Below, one piece after another: positions 18,028 through 21,000 of a DNA stretch of 64,000 nucleotides. The stretch lies in assembly GCF_000026545.1 (NCBI RefSeq), contig NC_011601.1; one strand, 5' to 3'. Position numbers: made by a program. How positions within the stretch are numbered: position 1 is the stretch's first letter; each line of letters begins with the position of its first letter. The stretch is from Escherichia coli O127:H6 str. E2348/69. GTDB taxonomy: Bacteria > Pseudomonadota > Gammaproteobacteria > Enterobacterales > Enterobacteriaceae.

Positions 18028-21000
18028 TCATCGAAGGTCAACAGCACGCCTTCGGCACCAGGCACGCTTGCGACTTCATCTAACATGCGCGCGACACTGG
18101 CGTAAGAACCGACTAACGTCCCCATATTGATGTTTACTGCCGAAGTGGGATCGGCCATCTGACGGACGTTGGTGTCAGTACCGGAGCGGGTATCTTTCTG
18201 ACTTTGTTCGGTTAGCCAGCTTAAGGCTTCTTCATCCGCGCCCGCTTTGTAGTGTTCCCATTTGGCGCGAGCGGCATCGTCGGTTTCATCGGCAATCACC
18301 ATAAACAACACATAAGAGCCAACGTCGCGCCCGGTTTGCTCTGCGGCCTGTTTCATCCGCGCAGCGGTCGGGGCGAAAGCCGTGGGTGTATTTACGCCTT
18401 TGCCGAAACAGAAGTTGAAATCGGCATACCGGGCGGAGAACGCCATGCCAGCGTCGCTTTGCCCGGCGCAGATCACTTTCATGGGGACACTCGGTTGCGG
18501 ACTGACGCGACAATCATCCATAGTGAAAAAATCGCCTTTAAAATCGCTTTTCCCCGAGCCCCACAGGTCGCGCAGCACCTGAACATATTCGGTGAGATAG
18601 TCGTAACGACGGGAGAAATAGTCATCGCCAGGCCAGATCCCCATCTGCTCATACTCGGGCTTTTGCCAGCCAGTCACGAGGTTGACGCCAAAACGCCCGC
18701 CAGAGATGGAGTCGATGGTTGCGGCCATACGGGCGACGATTGCCGGAGGTAACGTTAAGGTGGCGGCAGTGGCGTAAATCTGAATCCGCGAGGTCACGGC
18801 TGCCAGCCCCGCCATCAAGGTGAACGACTCAAGGTTGTGATCCCAGAACTCAGTTTTGCCGCCAAAGCCACGCAGTTTGATCATCGACAGGGCGAAATCG
18901 AAATGGTAGTGCTCCGCTTTTTGCACAATGGCTTTATTCAGTTCAAAGGTCGGCATGTACTGCGGCGCGTGGGTCGAAATGAGCCAGCCGTTGTTGCCAA
19001 TAGGTACGAATACGCCAATTTTCATCATCAACCTCTCTTCGTCTCGTAAAGTGAAAGTCAGACGGGGCGCTGCATCCTGCATATCCTTTTCAGCCGCGTA
19101 ATGGCTTGTTTGCAAAGCGGATGCCAGTTTTTAAAAAGCGAATGTTATTAATGTGTTAATGTTTGGTTGTCTGAAATATCTGGAAAAAAGTGGACTAAAC
19201 GGTCAAAACAGTTGCACATAAAACATGCATCCGTGCGCGATGAGAGTGCAGAAGGTCGAGGCCGGGCGGGGGTTTTGCTATCCTGTTGCCAATCTACAAG
19301 AGGGGAGAGCGCATGACGCAAGGCGCAGTGAAAACAACGGGTAAACGTTCGCGCGCAGTGAGCGCGAAGAAAAAAGCGATTCTTAGCGCAGCACTGGACA
19401 CTTTTTCACAATTCGGTTTTCACGGCACAAGGCTGGAGCAGATCGCAGAGTTGGCAGGCGTTTCAAAAACCAATCTGCTGTATTACTTCCCGTCAAAAGA
19501 GGCGCTGTATATAGCCGTACTGCGGCAGATTCTCGATATCTGGCTGGCACCGTTAAAAGCGTTTCGTGAAGATTTCGCCCCGCTGGCGGCGATCAAAGAG
19601 TACATCCGTCTGAAGCTGGAAGTCTCACGCGATTATCCGCAGGCTTCACGTCTGTTTTGTATGGAGATGCTGGCAGGCGCGCCGTTGTTAATGGATGAAC
19701 TGACGGGCGATTTGAAGGCATTAATTGATGAGAAATCGGCGCTGATTGCCGGTTGGGTAAAAAGCGGCAAACTCGCGCCGATTGATCCGCAGCATTTGAT
19801 TTTTATGATTTGGGCTTCCACTCAACATTACGCCGATTTCGCCCCTCAGGTGGAGGCGGTGACAGGCGCGACGTTGCGCGATGAGGTATTTTTCAATCAA
19901 ACGGTTGAAAACGTGCAGCGGATTATTATTGAGGGGATTCGACCACGTTAAAGATGCCGGAGGAGGTTGTAACATCCTCCGGCTACCTGTTTAACCGATC
20001 GTCATTAAACTGGCGTTACCGCCAGCGGCAGCGGTATTCACACTCAGCGAACGTTCGATATACAGCCGTTCCAGAAGGATATTGCTTTCGTCACGGGCAA
20101 AACCCTGCACCGAAACAATTGCGCCATCCCGCGCGGCAACGGCTTCACACAATGCGCGAAGCTGATCCGAATCACCGTGGAAGATCACCGCATCAAACGG
20201 TTGAGCGGTTATATTTTCCGCTTTCGCCAGTTGAATACGTTCGCTGACTGCCGATGGCAATGCCTTCACTAACTGACGATGCAGCGAGTCATCCGGCCAC
20301 AGTACCTGGCTGCCCACCGCCAGCACGGCGGCGAGCTGAGTCAGCGCATCCTGTTCATCATCCGCAATACACAACACGCGCTCGCGCGGCAGCAGCGTCC
20401 AGGTGTTGCGTTCACCCGTCGGCCCTGGCAGCAATCGTTGTGTTCCTGCCTGCGCCAGCTCGCCATATTGCGTACATAACGCCTGCAATTCTGGACGATT
20501 TGCTGCCCATTCCCGCAGTGCATTTAGCGGCTGAGTCAATGCGGCTTTCAACTGCGCATCGACCGGATACTCTGCGTCCTGACGCGCGAGCGTCACTGCC
20601 AGTGCACTTTCTGGGCGATTCGCCAGCAGACGGTAGAGATAGAGCGGACCGCCTGCTTTCGGCCCGGTGCCGGACAACCCTTCGCCGCCGAACGGCTGCA
20701 CCCCAACCACTGCGCCCACCATATTACGGTTAACGTACAGATTACCGACATGCGCCGAGCCAGTGACCTGGGCGATGGTTTCATCAATGCGCGTATGGAC
20801 GCCAAGCGTCAGACCATAACCGGAAGCGTTAATCTGCTCGATCAGCGCCGGCAGCTGGTTACGGTTGTAACGCACCACATGCAGCACCGGACCAAAGACC
20901 TCTTTTTGTAATTCGGCAAAGTCATCCAGTTCGATCAGCGTCGGAGCGACAAAGGTGCCGCTTTGCCATTCACGGGTATCTTCGCTGTTTTCCCGCACCG

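What the first reader, a model, noticed from the sequence alone, without database searches (positions are those of the whole stretch)
19110..19206. rut control region shows a sigma54-type promoter and RutR-box-like palindrome; the ORF-track rutA start would overlap the promoter
TGGCAT-N5-TTGCA on the rut strand lies about 30 nt upstream of the MQDAAP start codon, and TGGACTAAACGGTCAA lies 60 nt further upstream. This supports the shorter rutA start (19082) and fits known NtrC/sigma54 and RutR control. Nothing unusual, but it anchors the annotation.
Basis: partly seen in the sequence, partly recalled or inferred. Interest (0 to 1): 0.15.

Follow-up and report, generated by a model that had tools for sequence, protein, structure and literature searches.

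The report
Known rutA promoter; start codon misplaced

Summary
The window is E. coli E2348/69. CTGGCATCCGCTTTGCA (19127-19111, minus strand) is letter for letter the sigma-54 ChIP-seq motif published for rutA. TGGACTAAACGGTCAA (19191-19206) is letter for letter the published RutR box. All 78 related Enterobacterales loci I fetched keep the promoter, a RutR-like site at a fixed offset, and usually two NtrC-like sites. The ORF-track TTG (19115) is the TTG of the -12 element itself, so it cannot be the start.

The start-codon inference is only half right. ATG 19082 is poorly supported. The RutA family profile begins at MKIGVF (ATG 19025). Every relative keeps that ATG, with an SD-like tetramer (mostly GAGG) 5-8 nt upstream. 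In 35 of 78 loci an in-frame stop lies within the 19 codons upstream, and 15 E. coli genomes carry one too. NCBI's PGAP annotation already calls the 363-residue protein.

The 57 "extra" bases belong to a roughly 75-nt leader. It carries a conserved 5'-terminal stem-loop presenting CAGGAUG, the CsrB-repeat (CsrA-binding) consensus. The element has no Rfam match and its function is untested.

Verdict: known biology and low interest, with a modest untested lead.

The parts
19111..19127 (-). Sigma-54 (RpoN) promoter CTGGCATCCGCTTTGCA. GG lies at 19125-19124 (-25/-24) and GC at 19113-19112 (-13/-12).
   Evidence: It is the only exact match to the pattern in the window. It is identical to ChIP-seq motif OS10 for rutA (PMC4591121). 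TGGCAY-N5-YTGCW is present upstream of rutA in 78/78 related loci.
19100..19100 (-). Predicted rutA transcription start: 12 nt downstream of the -12 C, or 19 bp downstream of the motif centre.
   Evidence: This is inferred from sigma-54 promoter geometry and the convention of PMC4591121, which gives 18 nt to the K-12 annotated ATG. I found no mapped TSS.
19191..19206 (.). RutR operator (RutR box), read TTGACCGTTTAGTCCA on the rut strand. Its centre is about -98.5 from the predicted rutA TSS and 114.5 bp before the rutR ATG.
   Evidence: It is identical to the published site (PMC2475637 Table 1). Binding and uracil release are reported in PMC2952853. An operator-constitutive mutant abolishes rutR autoregulation (PMC4325133). 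The best RutR-like site sits in three offset classes about 10 bp apart in 78/78 loci, and the key positions A4 and T13 are kept in 78/78.
19213..19229 (.). Promoter-proximal NtrC-like enhancer site, TGCATGTTTTATGTGCA on the rut strand. Its centre is about -121, and it lies 6 bp from the RutR box.
   Evidence: It has 5 mismatches to TGCACCAnnnTGGTGCA. A site at 23-24 bp from the RutR-box centre recurs in 45/78 loci. An NtrC ChIP-seq peak is reported on ycdM (= rutA) (PMC4066584). Assigning this exact site to NtrC is inference.
19234..19250 (.). Distal NtrC-like enhancer site, TGCACTCTCATCGCGCA on the rut strand. Its centre is about -142.
   Evidence: It has 4 mismatches to the consensus. A site at 44-45 bp from the RutR-box centre recurs in 59/78 loci (69/78 if offsets of 43-46 bp are counted). 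Assigning this exact site to NtrC is inference.
19062..19099 (-). Conserved 5'-terminal leader stem-loop. The outer helix pairs 19099-19097 and 19095-19093 with 19068-19066 and 19064-19062. The apical hairpin is UGCA-GGA-UGCA (19081-19071), whose core CAGGAUG lies at 19079-19073. A second GGA lies at 19086-19084.
   Evidence: RNAalifold predicts this structure in the Enterobacteriaceae subset, and the outer helix alone in the Erwiniaceae-type subset. Pairing is 87-99% of cells, with 2-3 covarying pairs. A covariance model recovers it in 13 held-out loci, and in the window only here. The core carries 1.69 bits per column against 0.36-0.57 in the flanks (the alignment was selected for the core). 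There is no Rfam match.
19080..19082 (-). ATG used as the rutA start in the K-12 record (382 aa, MQDAAP...).
   Evidence: K-12 annotation. The AAGGA before it is only 1 nt from the ATG, and the duplex with the 16S rRNA tail is -5.4 kcal/mol. The ATG lies inside the conserved hairpin. The triplet at this position is a start codon (ATG, GTG or TTG) in only 36 of 60 leaders.
19032..19035 (-). Shine-Dalgarno GAGG for the 19025 start, with 6 nt of spacing.
   Evidence: The duplex with the 16S rRNA tail is -9.1 kcal/mol. An SD-like tetramer (GAGG, AAGG, GGGG or AGGA) lies 5-8 nt before the ATG in 78/78 loci.
17934..19025 (-). rutA coding sequence as best supported: 363 aa, [10 protein letters not shown]...
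   Evidence: PGAP annotation of the identical strain. Position 1 of the TIGR03612 RutA profile aligns to this Met. ATG-AAA/AAG (Met-Lys) is conserved in 78/78 loci. PDB entries 6sgg and 6sgl use constructs of 363 and 364 residues.
19113..19115 (-). TTG of the mechanical longest ORF (393 aa). It is the TTG of the -12 element and is not a start codon.
   Evidence: It lies upstream of the predicted TSS.
19313..19951 (+). rutR, the divergent gene for the TetR-family repressor (212 aa).
   Evidence: Annotation; ORF.
19148..19177 (+). Possible rutR sigma-70 promoter, TTAATG-18-TGAAAT (TTAATC-18-TAAAAT in K-12). This would put the RutR box at about +8 to +23 of rutR. Low confidence.
   Evidence: This is my reading of the sequence. 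It fits the statement that the box lies downstream of the rutR RNA polymerase binding site (PMC4325133). The consensus scan found no sigma-70 site at its threshold.

Best explanation
The interval is the core of the divergent rutR-rutABCDEFG control region of E. coli (here strain E2348/69).

Transcription of rutA. Sigma-54 RNA polymerase holoenzyme binds the -24/-12 element at 19126-19111. It should start rut transcription near 19100 once activated by NtrC. NtrC is inferred to bind two enhancer-like sites centred near -121 and -142.

Repression by RutR. RutR binds the single operator at 19191-19206 and is released by uracil. The operator lies between the enhancer and the promoter, 6 bp from the proximal NtrC-like site. 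It also lies just downstream of rutR's own promoter, so one operator serves both directions. I infer that RutR represses rut by hindering NtrC assembly or looping, and represses rutR by acting as a downstream block.

Translation of rutA. RutA translation most likely begins at ATG 19025 (MKIGVF, 363 aa). It does not begin at TTG 19115, which is the -12 element. It most likely does not begin at ATG 19082 either. The stretch 19100-19026 is therefore a leader of about 75 nt. Its first 38 nt form a conserved stem-loop that contains ATG 19082.

Shown (published experiments on the identical K-12 sequence): binding of sigma-54, NtrC and RutR to this region. Inferred: the exact TSS, the exact NtrC sites, the repression mechanism, the start codon, and any function of the leader hairpin.
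For: Identity of the sites
- The sigma-54 motif equals the ChIP-seq site, and an RpoN gSELEX peak lies in the rutA/rutR spacer.
- The RutR box equals the ChIP-chip and footprinted site. Kd and uracil response are, and operator mutants.
- An NtrC ChIP-seq peak lies on ycdM (= rutA).
- The window is 100% identical to E2348/69. It matches K-12 across all the elements.

Conservation
- 78/78 Enterobacterales loci keep TGGCAY-N5-YTGCW.
- The RutR-like site falls in offset classes -69 to -73 (34 loci), -80 to -82 (38) and -60 to -63 (6). A4 and T13 are kept in 78/78.
- NtrC-like sites lie 44-45 bp and 23-24 bp beyond the RutR-box centre in 59 and 45 loci.

Start codon
- The RutA profile TIGR03612 starts at residue 20 of the 382-aa form.
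- 35/78 loci have an in-frame stop within the 19 codons upstream, and 48/78 have one within the predicted leader. 49/78 have no alternative in-frame start.
- SD duplex energy is -9.1 kcal/mol with 6-nt spacing for 19025, against -5.4 with 1-nt spacing for 19082.
- 15 complete E. coli genomes carry CGA>TGA inside the 'extension', yet rutA is annotated intact at 363 aa.
- Against that lineage the extension has pN 0.089 and pS 0.082. The core gene has pN 0.010 and pS 0.307.
- PGAP aa in this strain.
Against: - I found no mapped rutA transcription start or N-terminal protein sequence. The TSS is only the geometric prediction.
- The K-12 reference record and one crystal construct (5wan) use the 382-aa form.
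- In E. coli itself the 19 codons are open and in frame, and AAGGA precedes ATG 19082. Some initiation there cannot be excluded.
- The NtrC-like sites have 4-5 mismatches to the consensus. The published NtrC peak is too broad to assign them.
- One paper calls RutR's role at rut 'activation' rather than repression (PMC2952853).
Confidence: 0.82

Rival explanations
1. One reading: rutA starts at ATG 19082, giving the 382-aa protein [23 protein letters not shown]... from an 18-nt 5' UTR. The 19 extra residues would be a genuine N-terminal extension.
For: The K-12 reference annotation NP_415532.3 uses it. PDB 5wan was built from it. The frame is open in this window, and AAGGA precedes the ATG. A few relatives also keep an in-frame ATG at a similar place: L003, L006, L022, L018, L009 and L040.
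Against: - The extension is not part of the RutA family profile.
- It is broken by stops in 35/78 relatives, and in 15 E. coli genomes whose rutA is otherwise intact.
- It evolves with pN about equal to pS, while the gene has pN/pS of about 0.03.
- The conserved nucleotide block sits in all three reading frames relative to rutA.
- The SD spacing is about 1 nt.
- The ATG lies inside a conserved hairpin.
Confidence: 0.1
2. The conserved block encodes a short upstream leader peptide (MQDAAPR...). Its translation would control rutA, for example by coupling or by ribosome stalling on Pro-rich codons. In E. coli it happens to be fused in frame to rutA.
For: - In the Enterobacteriaceae rows the triplet is ATG in nearly all.
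- The pseudo-peptide x-Q-D/E-A-x-P/Q-R is recognisable across families, and several changes are third-position (GAT/GAC, CCC/CCA/CCG, CGT/CGC).
- In 13 of 60 leaders the frame ends overlapping the rutA ATG.
- Tatumella has MQDAPPP.
Against: - The triplet is not a start codon (ATG, GTG or TTG) in 24 of 60 leaders (CCG, AAG, CGG, CTG, TCG, CAG, AGG; TAG in L027).
- The end of the frame is scattered: 25 upstream of rutA, 15 fused, 13 overlapping the ATG, 7 inside rutA.
- The GGA-to-start spacing is only 0-2 nt.
- The two first bases of the 'ATG' are among the least conserved columns, and variation is not confined to third positions.
Confidence: 0.08
3. The conserved block at +2 to +39 acts as DNA, not RNA. 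It would be an operator for an unidentified regulator, or a contact for the sigma-54 open complex, just downstream of the start site.
For: - Most paired columns never vary, so the helix evidence is thin.
- The E. coli leader is not unusually stable (z = +0.8).
- The published NtrC ChIP-seq window (1073221-1073301, U00096.2) corresponds by my conversion to window 19069-19149 and overlaps the block.
Against: - The block matches the NtrC consensus poorly by my manual comparison (7/14 or fewer; not a tool result). It has no RutR-box match either: the only RutR-like hit near here is the known box.
- The NtrC windows that paper lists for glnK, glnH and astC also coincide with the sigma-54 motif centres in PMC4591121. 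The overlap is therefore uninformative.
- Two to three pairs show compensatory changes: G-C to A-U in 8 rows, C-G to U-A in 2.
Confidence: 0.08

Closest known systems
The rutAp sigma-54 promoter of E. coli K-12 (NtrC-activated, like glnAp2, glnK, glnH and astC)
   Same: The 17-nt motif is identical (CTGGCATCCGCTTTGCA). It has the same gene context (putA-rutR<>rutA), and the predicted TSS lies the same 18 nt before the K-12 annotated ATG.
   Different: The core is unchanged. The 45-bp AT-rich spacer between the promoter and the RutR box carries about 10 substitutions relative to K-12.
The RutR box of the rutR-rutA spacer (TetR-family operator, consensus TTGACCAnnTGGTCAA)
   Same: The 16-mer is identical to the published site, with the same 11/14 match and the same distance (114.5 bp) to the rutR ATG.
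   Different: None in sequence. It is a weaker consensus match than the carA site (13/14), yet it binds RutR with similar affinity according to PMC2952853.
CsrA-binding hairpins (CsrB repeats CAGGA(U/A/C)G; SELEX consensus RUACARGGAUGU)
   Same: The conserved leader core is GCAGGA(U/A/C/G)GCA. It is predicted to sit on a 3-4 bp hairpin with GGA in the loop. A second conserved GGA lies about 9 nt upstream (motif definition from PMC7652899).
   Different: - No GGA overlaps the rutA SD (GAGAGG), so the usual occlusion mechanism does not apply.
- The spacing of the two GGA motifs is at the short end of what is reported for dual-site binding.
- No binding data exist: rutA is absent from the E. coli CLIP-seq tables, although rutR mRNA has a peak.
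- Membership is untested.
5'-terminal stabilising stem-loops of bacterial mRNAs (for example the ompA leader; from my own knowledge)
   Same: The predicted helix starts at +2 of the transcript.
   Different: The helix is short and carries an internal mismatch (consensus energy about -8 kcal/mol). No decay data exist.

Membership tests
Sigma-54 (RpoN) dependent promoter | -24 GG and -12 GC elements in TGGCAC-N5-TTGCW with fixed spacing, oriented towards a downstream gene | tested here: met
   TGGCATCCGCTTTGCA at 19126-19111 on the rut strand is the only match in 64 kb. It is conserved in 78/78 orthologous loci.
Sigma-54 (RpoN) dependent promoter | Occupancy by sigma-54 holoenzyme | not testable with these tools
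   Published for the identical K-12 sequence: ChIP-seq site OS10 and an RpoN gSELEX peak.
Sigma-54 (RpoN) dependent promoter | Upstream enhancer sites for an activator ATPase (here NtrC) | tested here: inconclusive
   Two NtrC-like 17-mers (4 and 5 mismatches) lie at about -142 and -121. Their position is conserved in 59 and 45 of 78 loci. An NtrC ChIP peak on the region is published, but it does not resolve the sites.
Sigma-54 (RpoN) dependent promoter | Transcription start about 12 nt after the -12 element, dependent on rpoN and ntrC | not testable with these tools
   I found no mapped TSS in the papers held. The primary papers (Zimmer 2000; Loh 2006; Shimada 2007) were not available.
RutR operator (RutR box) | Match to TTGACCAnnTGGTCAA, with the critical A at position 4 and T at position 13 | tested here: met
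   11/14 with A4 and T13 present. The match count alone is at chance level in the window. A4 and T13 are kept in 78/78 orthologous sites.
RutR operator (RutR box) | Fixed position in the rutR-rutA spacer across species | tested here: met
   There are three offset classes about 10 bp apart relative to the -24 element (34, 38 and 6 loci).
RutR operator (RutR box) | RutR binding released by uracil | not testable with these tools
   Published for the identical sequence.
RutA (TIGR03612, pyrimidine monooxygenase), regarding its N-terminus | The family profile begins at the protein's first residue | tested here: met
   For the 363-aa form, profile positions 1-354 align to residues 20-373 of the 382-aa form (725.9 bits against a cutoff of 498.3). 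The 19-residue extension lies outside the family.
CsrA-binding site (candidate for the leader hairpin) | GGA in the loop of a short hairpin, in a CAGGA(U/A/C)G or ACARGGAUGU-like context | tested here: met
   UGCA-GGA-UGCA at 19081-19071. The hairpin is predicted by RNAalifold and the core is conserved. The motif definition comes from PMC7652899.
CsrA-binding site (candidate for the leader hairpin) | A binding site overlapping the SD or start codon of the regulated gene (the usual repression mode) | tested here: not met
   The SD of the 19025 start is GAGAGG with no GGA. The hairpin lies 37-56 nt upstream of it.
CsrA-binding site (candidate for the leader hairpin) | Physical binding of CsrA and a csrA-dependent change in expression | not testable with these tools
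   rutA is not in the E. coli CLIP-seq or RNA-seq tables that were searched. No paper links rutA and CsrA.

The most novel reading that the evidence does not exclude
The 57 nt that the K-12 reference translates as RutA residues 1-19 are instead the 5' end of the rut mRNA. They carry a previously undescribed cis-regulatory RNA, conserved across Enterobacteriaceae, Erwiniaceae and some Yersiniaceae. It is a 5'-terminal stem-loop that displays a CsrB-type CAGGAUG hairpin plus a second GGA. Through it CsrA (or another RNA-binding factor) would control the stability or translation of the NtrC/RutR-controlled pyrimidine-nitrogen scavenging operon. This would add a carbon-status input to a nitrogen- and uracil-controlled operon. 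CsrA already cross-links to rutR mRNA.
Probability: 0.25. Interest if true: 0.4.

Novelty: already known. Interest (0 to 1): 0.18.

Why it matters
The promoter and operator only confirm textbook regulation of the rut operon.

The practical point concerns annotation. The E. coli K-12 reference record still gives RutA 19 N-terminal residues that the comparative evidence says are untranslated leader, and some biochemical constructs include them. Anyone expressing RutA, or modelling rut regulation (5' UTR of 18 nt against about 75 nt), is affected.

The conserved leader hairpin is a small, cheap-to-test lead for post-transcriptional control of a nitrogen-scavenging operon.

Tried and rejected
- Rfam scan of 18900-19400 on both strands at E <= 10: no match.
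- Single-sequence folding of the E. coli leader: not more stable than shuffles (z = +0.8).
- RNAalifold on the mixed-family alignment that included the promoter: no leader structure. The structure appeared only when the families were folded separately on the transcribed part.
- Sigma-70 promoter scan of the spacer: nothing at the tool's threshold. The rutR promoter I list is therefore low confidence.
- IHF consensus search: a 1-mismatch hit at 19146-19158, but such hits occur at the chance rate (97 found against 83.5 expected). No IHF claim is made.
- Reading the conserved block as an NtrC or RutR site: it matches both consensus sequences poorly. This was my manual comparison.
- Reading the block as a conserved uORF: rejected as the main explanation, because the start codon is missing in 24 of 60 leaders and the end points are scattered.
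- Literature searches for a mapped rutA TSS, a discussion of the start codon, or a CsrA-rutA link: nothing found.
- Loh 2006, Kim 2010 and Shimada 2007 could not be read.
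Full report
WHAT IS THERE

The window is E. coli E2348/69: a 601-nt query across the finding is 100% identical to that genome. The locus is putA - rutR <> rutA - rutB.

On the minus (rut) strand I read CTGGCATCCGCTTTGCA at 19127-19111 and TTGACCGTTTAGTCCA at 19206-19191. The second is TGGACTAAACGGTCAA on the + strand. The mechanical longest ORF starts at TTG 19115, and this TTG is the TTG of the -12 element.

IS IT MORE THAN CHANCE?

Not on sequence statistics alone.
- The sigma-54 pattern is found once against 0.26 expected, and 23% of shuffles have at least one.
- Three-mismatch RutR-box matches occur at the chance rate, 4 against 2.94 expected.

Outside evidence decides it.
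- The 17-mer is exactly the motif of sigma-54 ChIP-seq site OS10, assigned to rutA. Its predicted start site lies 18 nt before the annotated gene start (PMC4591121).
- RpoN holoenzyme selects the rutA/rutR spacer in genomic SELEX (PMC8743547).
- NtrC ChIP-seq gives a peak with an enrichment value of 94 on ycdMLKJIHG, the old name of the rut operon (PMC4066584).
- The 16-mer is exactly the RutR site listed for rutA: 11/14, previously identified, at -114.5 (PMC2475637). By my coordinates the -114.5 is the distance to the rutR ATG at 19313.
- RutR binds this fragment with a Kd of about 8.6 nM, and uracil releases it (PMC2952853).
- Four substitutions in the box abolish rutR autoregulation (PMC4325133).
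- K-12 and this window are identical across all these elements.

COMPARATIVE CHECK

A RutA-based scan of one genome per species returned 80 loci, all Enterobacterales. Of these, 78 had usable upstream sequence.
- All 78 have TGGCAY-N5-YTGCW upstream of rutA, mostly 96-106 nt before the MKIGVF ATG.
- In all 78, the best RutR-like site within 300 bp upstream falls in one of three narrow offset classes relative to the -24 element: -69 to -73 (34 loci), -80 to -82 (38) and -60 to -63 (6). These classes are one helical turn apart. The two positions reported as critical for binding (A4, T13) are kept in 78/78.
- NtrC-like 17-mers lie 23-24 bp and 44-45 bp beyond the box centre in 45 and 59 loci.
- In this window the NtrC-like sites are at 19213-19229 and 19234-19250, about -121 and -142 from a start at 19100. 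The box centre is at about -98.5, 6 bp from the proximal NtrC-like site.

That RutR interferes with NtrC assembly or looping is my inference. That the same box lies just downstream of the rutR promoter is stated in PMC4325133. My candidate -35/-10 (19148-19177) is a low-confidence reading, because the scan tool found nothing.

THE START CODON

The promoter excludes TTG 19115. It does not choose between ATG 19082 (382 aa, the K-12 record) and ATG 19025 (363 aa, PGAP for this very strain). PDB entries exist for the 382-, 364- and 363-residue forms.

The evidence favours 19025.
1. The curated RutA profile TIGR03612 aligns from its position 1 to residue 20 of the long form.
2. Every one of the 78 relatives has ATG-AAA/AAG (Met-Lys) at this point, with an SD-like tetramer (mostly GAGG) 5-8 nt upstream.
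3. 35/78 have an in-frame stop within the 19 codons upstream. 48/78 have one within the predicted transcribed leader. 49/78 have no alternative in-frame start.
4. The duplex with the 16S rRNA tail is -9.1 kcal/mol with 6-nt spacing for 19025. For 19082 it is -5.4 kcal/mol, with the AAGGA only 1 nt from the ATG.
5. Fifteen complete E. coli genomes carry CGA>TGA seven codons before MKIGVF. In the one I inspected, rutA is annotated intact at 363 aa.
6. Against that lineage, the 57 nt show 4 non-synonymous or nonsense changes and 1 synonymous change (pN 0.089, pS 0.082). The rest of the gene shows pN 0.010 and pS 0.307.

The upstream ATG at 19028 (MMKIGVF) is specific to Escherichia and Leclercia and has only 3-nt SD spacing, so 19025 is the better choice. 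Some initiation at 19082 in E. coli cannot be excluded without experiments.

WHAT THE 57 NT ARE INSTEAD

The nucleotide block ...GCG.GGC..AGGA..(N)GCAGGA(N)GCA..GC..CGC... is conserved from Escherichia to Pantoea, Erwinia, Tatumella and Serratia. It lies in all three reading frames relative to rutA.

- Conservation. The core carries 1.69 bits per column, against 0.36-0.57 in the flanking leader and 1.46 in the promoter. One caveat applies: that alignment kept only the 60 of 78 leaders that contain the core, so the core's invariance is partly by construction. The fair statement is that 60 of 78 leaders keep an 8-base core while their flanks have diverged.
- Structure. Folded by family on the transcribed part only, RNAalifold predicts an outer helix of 6 pairs with one internal mismatch. 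In this window it pairs 19099-19093 with 19068-19062. In the Enterobacteriaceae it also predicts an apical hairpin UGCA-GGA-UGCA at 19081-19071.
- Covariation. Pairing holds in 87-99% of cells. Two to three pairs show compensatory changes (G-C to A-U in 8 rows, C-G to U-A in 2), but most pairs never vary. The structure is therefore suggestive, not proven.
- Specificity. A covariance model built from 39 leaders finds the element at the expected place in 13 loci not used to build it (E from 4e-10 to 2e-3). In this 64-kb window it finds only the rutA leader.
- Distribution. The element is missing from the lineages with 56-63 nt between the -24 element and the MKIGVF ATG (leaders of about 30-37 nt), such as E. 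hormaechei subsp. hoffmannii, some Buttiauxella and some Rahnella. It is not detected in Mangrovibacter or in the long Rahnella leaders.
- Databases. It has no Rfam match.
- ATG 19082 and its apparent SD both lie inside this element.

POSSIBLE FUNCTION OF THE ELEMENT (INFERENCE)

The core equals the CsrB repeat consensus CAGGA(U/A/C)G, which is presented in hairpin loops (PMC7652899). A second conserved GGA lies about 9 nt upstream. The helix starts at +2 of the predicted transcript.

The two readings I rank highest are a CsrA-type protein-binding site and a 5'-terminal stabilising hairpin; they may act together.

Against a classical CsrA repression site:
- No GGA overlaps the rutA SD.
- rutA is absent from the E. 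coli CLIP-seq tables, although these were made in conditions where rut is presumably not expressed. rutR mRNA does carry a CLIP peak.
- No paper links rutA with CsrA.

A leader-peptide reading and a DNA-operator reading are treated as rivals and ranked lower.

COMPARISON AND VERDICT

The promoter and the operator are the known rutAp and RutR box, identical to the published sites, so nothing here is new.

The added value of this check is threefold:
- The start codon should be 19025, not 19082. PGAP already uses 19025; the K-12 reference does not.
- Comparative data show that the whole enhancer-operator-promoter module is conserved, with shifts of one helical turn.
- There is an undescribed conserved leader hairpin whose function is open.

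Noticed in passing
window 19062-19099 (- strand); e.g. L013:1430-1474, L066:1423-1469, L041:707-753: A conserved 5'-terminal stem-loop in the rutA leader. It has a CsrB-like CAGGA(U/A/C)G hairpin and a second GGA, and is present in about 60 of 78 Enterobacterales loci. It has no Rfam match and lies in codons 1-7 of the K-12 'long' RutA.
   Followed up: partly
L004:1480-1482; L083 (E. coli NT1N25) just upstream of rutA at 1377: An E. coli lineage (15 complete genomes, many from pigs) has CGA>TGA in frame, seven codons before MKIGVF. rutA is otherwise intact and is annotated at 363 aa.
   Followed up: yes
78 loci; offsets relative to the -24 element: The RutR box and the two NtrC-like sites move together as a block. 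They sit about 72 bp upstream of the -24 element in Enterobacteriaceae, about 81 bp in Erwiniaceae and Yersiniaceae, and about 62 bp in a few loci. The steps are one helical turn, which suggests that face-of-helix phasing with the sigma-54 promoter matters.
   Followed up: partly
window 19130-19180: The AT-rich spacer between the sigma-54 promoter and the RutR box probably holds the rutR promoter. It carries about 10 substitutions relative to K-12 within about 45 bp, while every flanking element is identical. The putative rutR -10 is TGAAAT here and TAAAAT in K-12.
   Followed up: no
rutR coding region, window about 19600-19775 (K-12 1074528-1074704): Published CsrA CLIP-seq (PMC5694010, supplementary tables) lists a CsrA cross-link peak inside the rutR coding sequence. 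The Csr system may therefore already touch the rut regulon through its repressor.
   Followed up: no
L019, L034, L039, L042, L044, L046, L079-L081: Several species have only 56-63 nt from the -24 element to the rutA ATG (leaders of about 30-37 nt). They lack the conserved hairpin but keep the promoter, SD and start. The element is therefore dispensable or has been lost repeatedly.
   Followed up: partly
Erwiniaceae-type loci, e.g. L052:1465-1500, L055, L041: Just after the conserved block, many Pantoea and Erwinia leaders have GUGAA(A/G)C. This is complementary to the GGUUUCAC that sits between the SD and the AUG, so the pairing could sequester the start region. RNAalifold did not call this pairing.
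   Followed up: no
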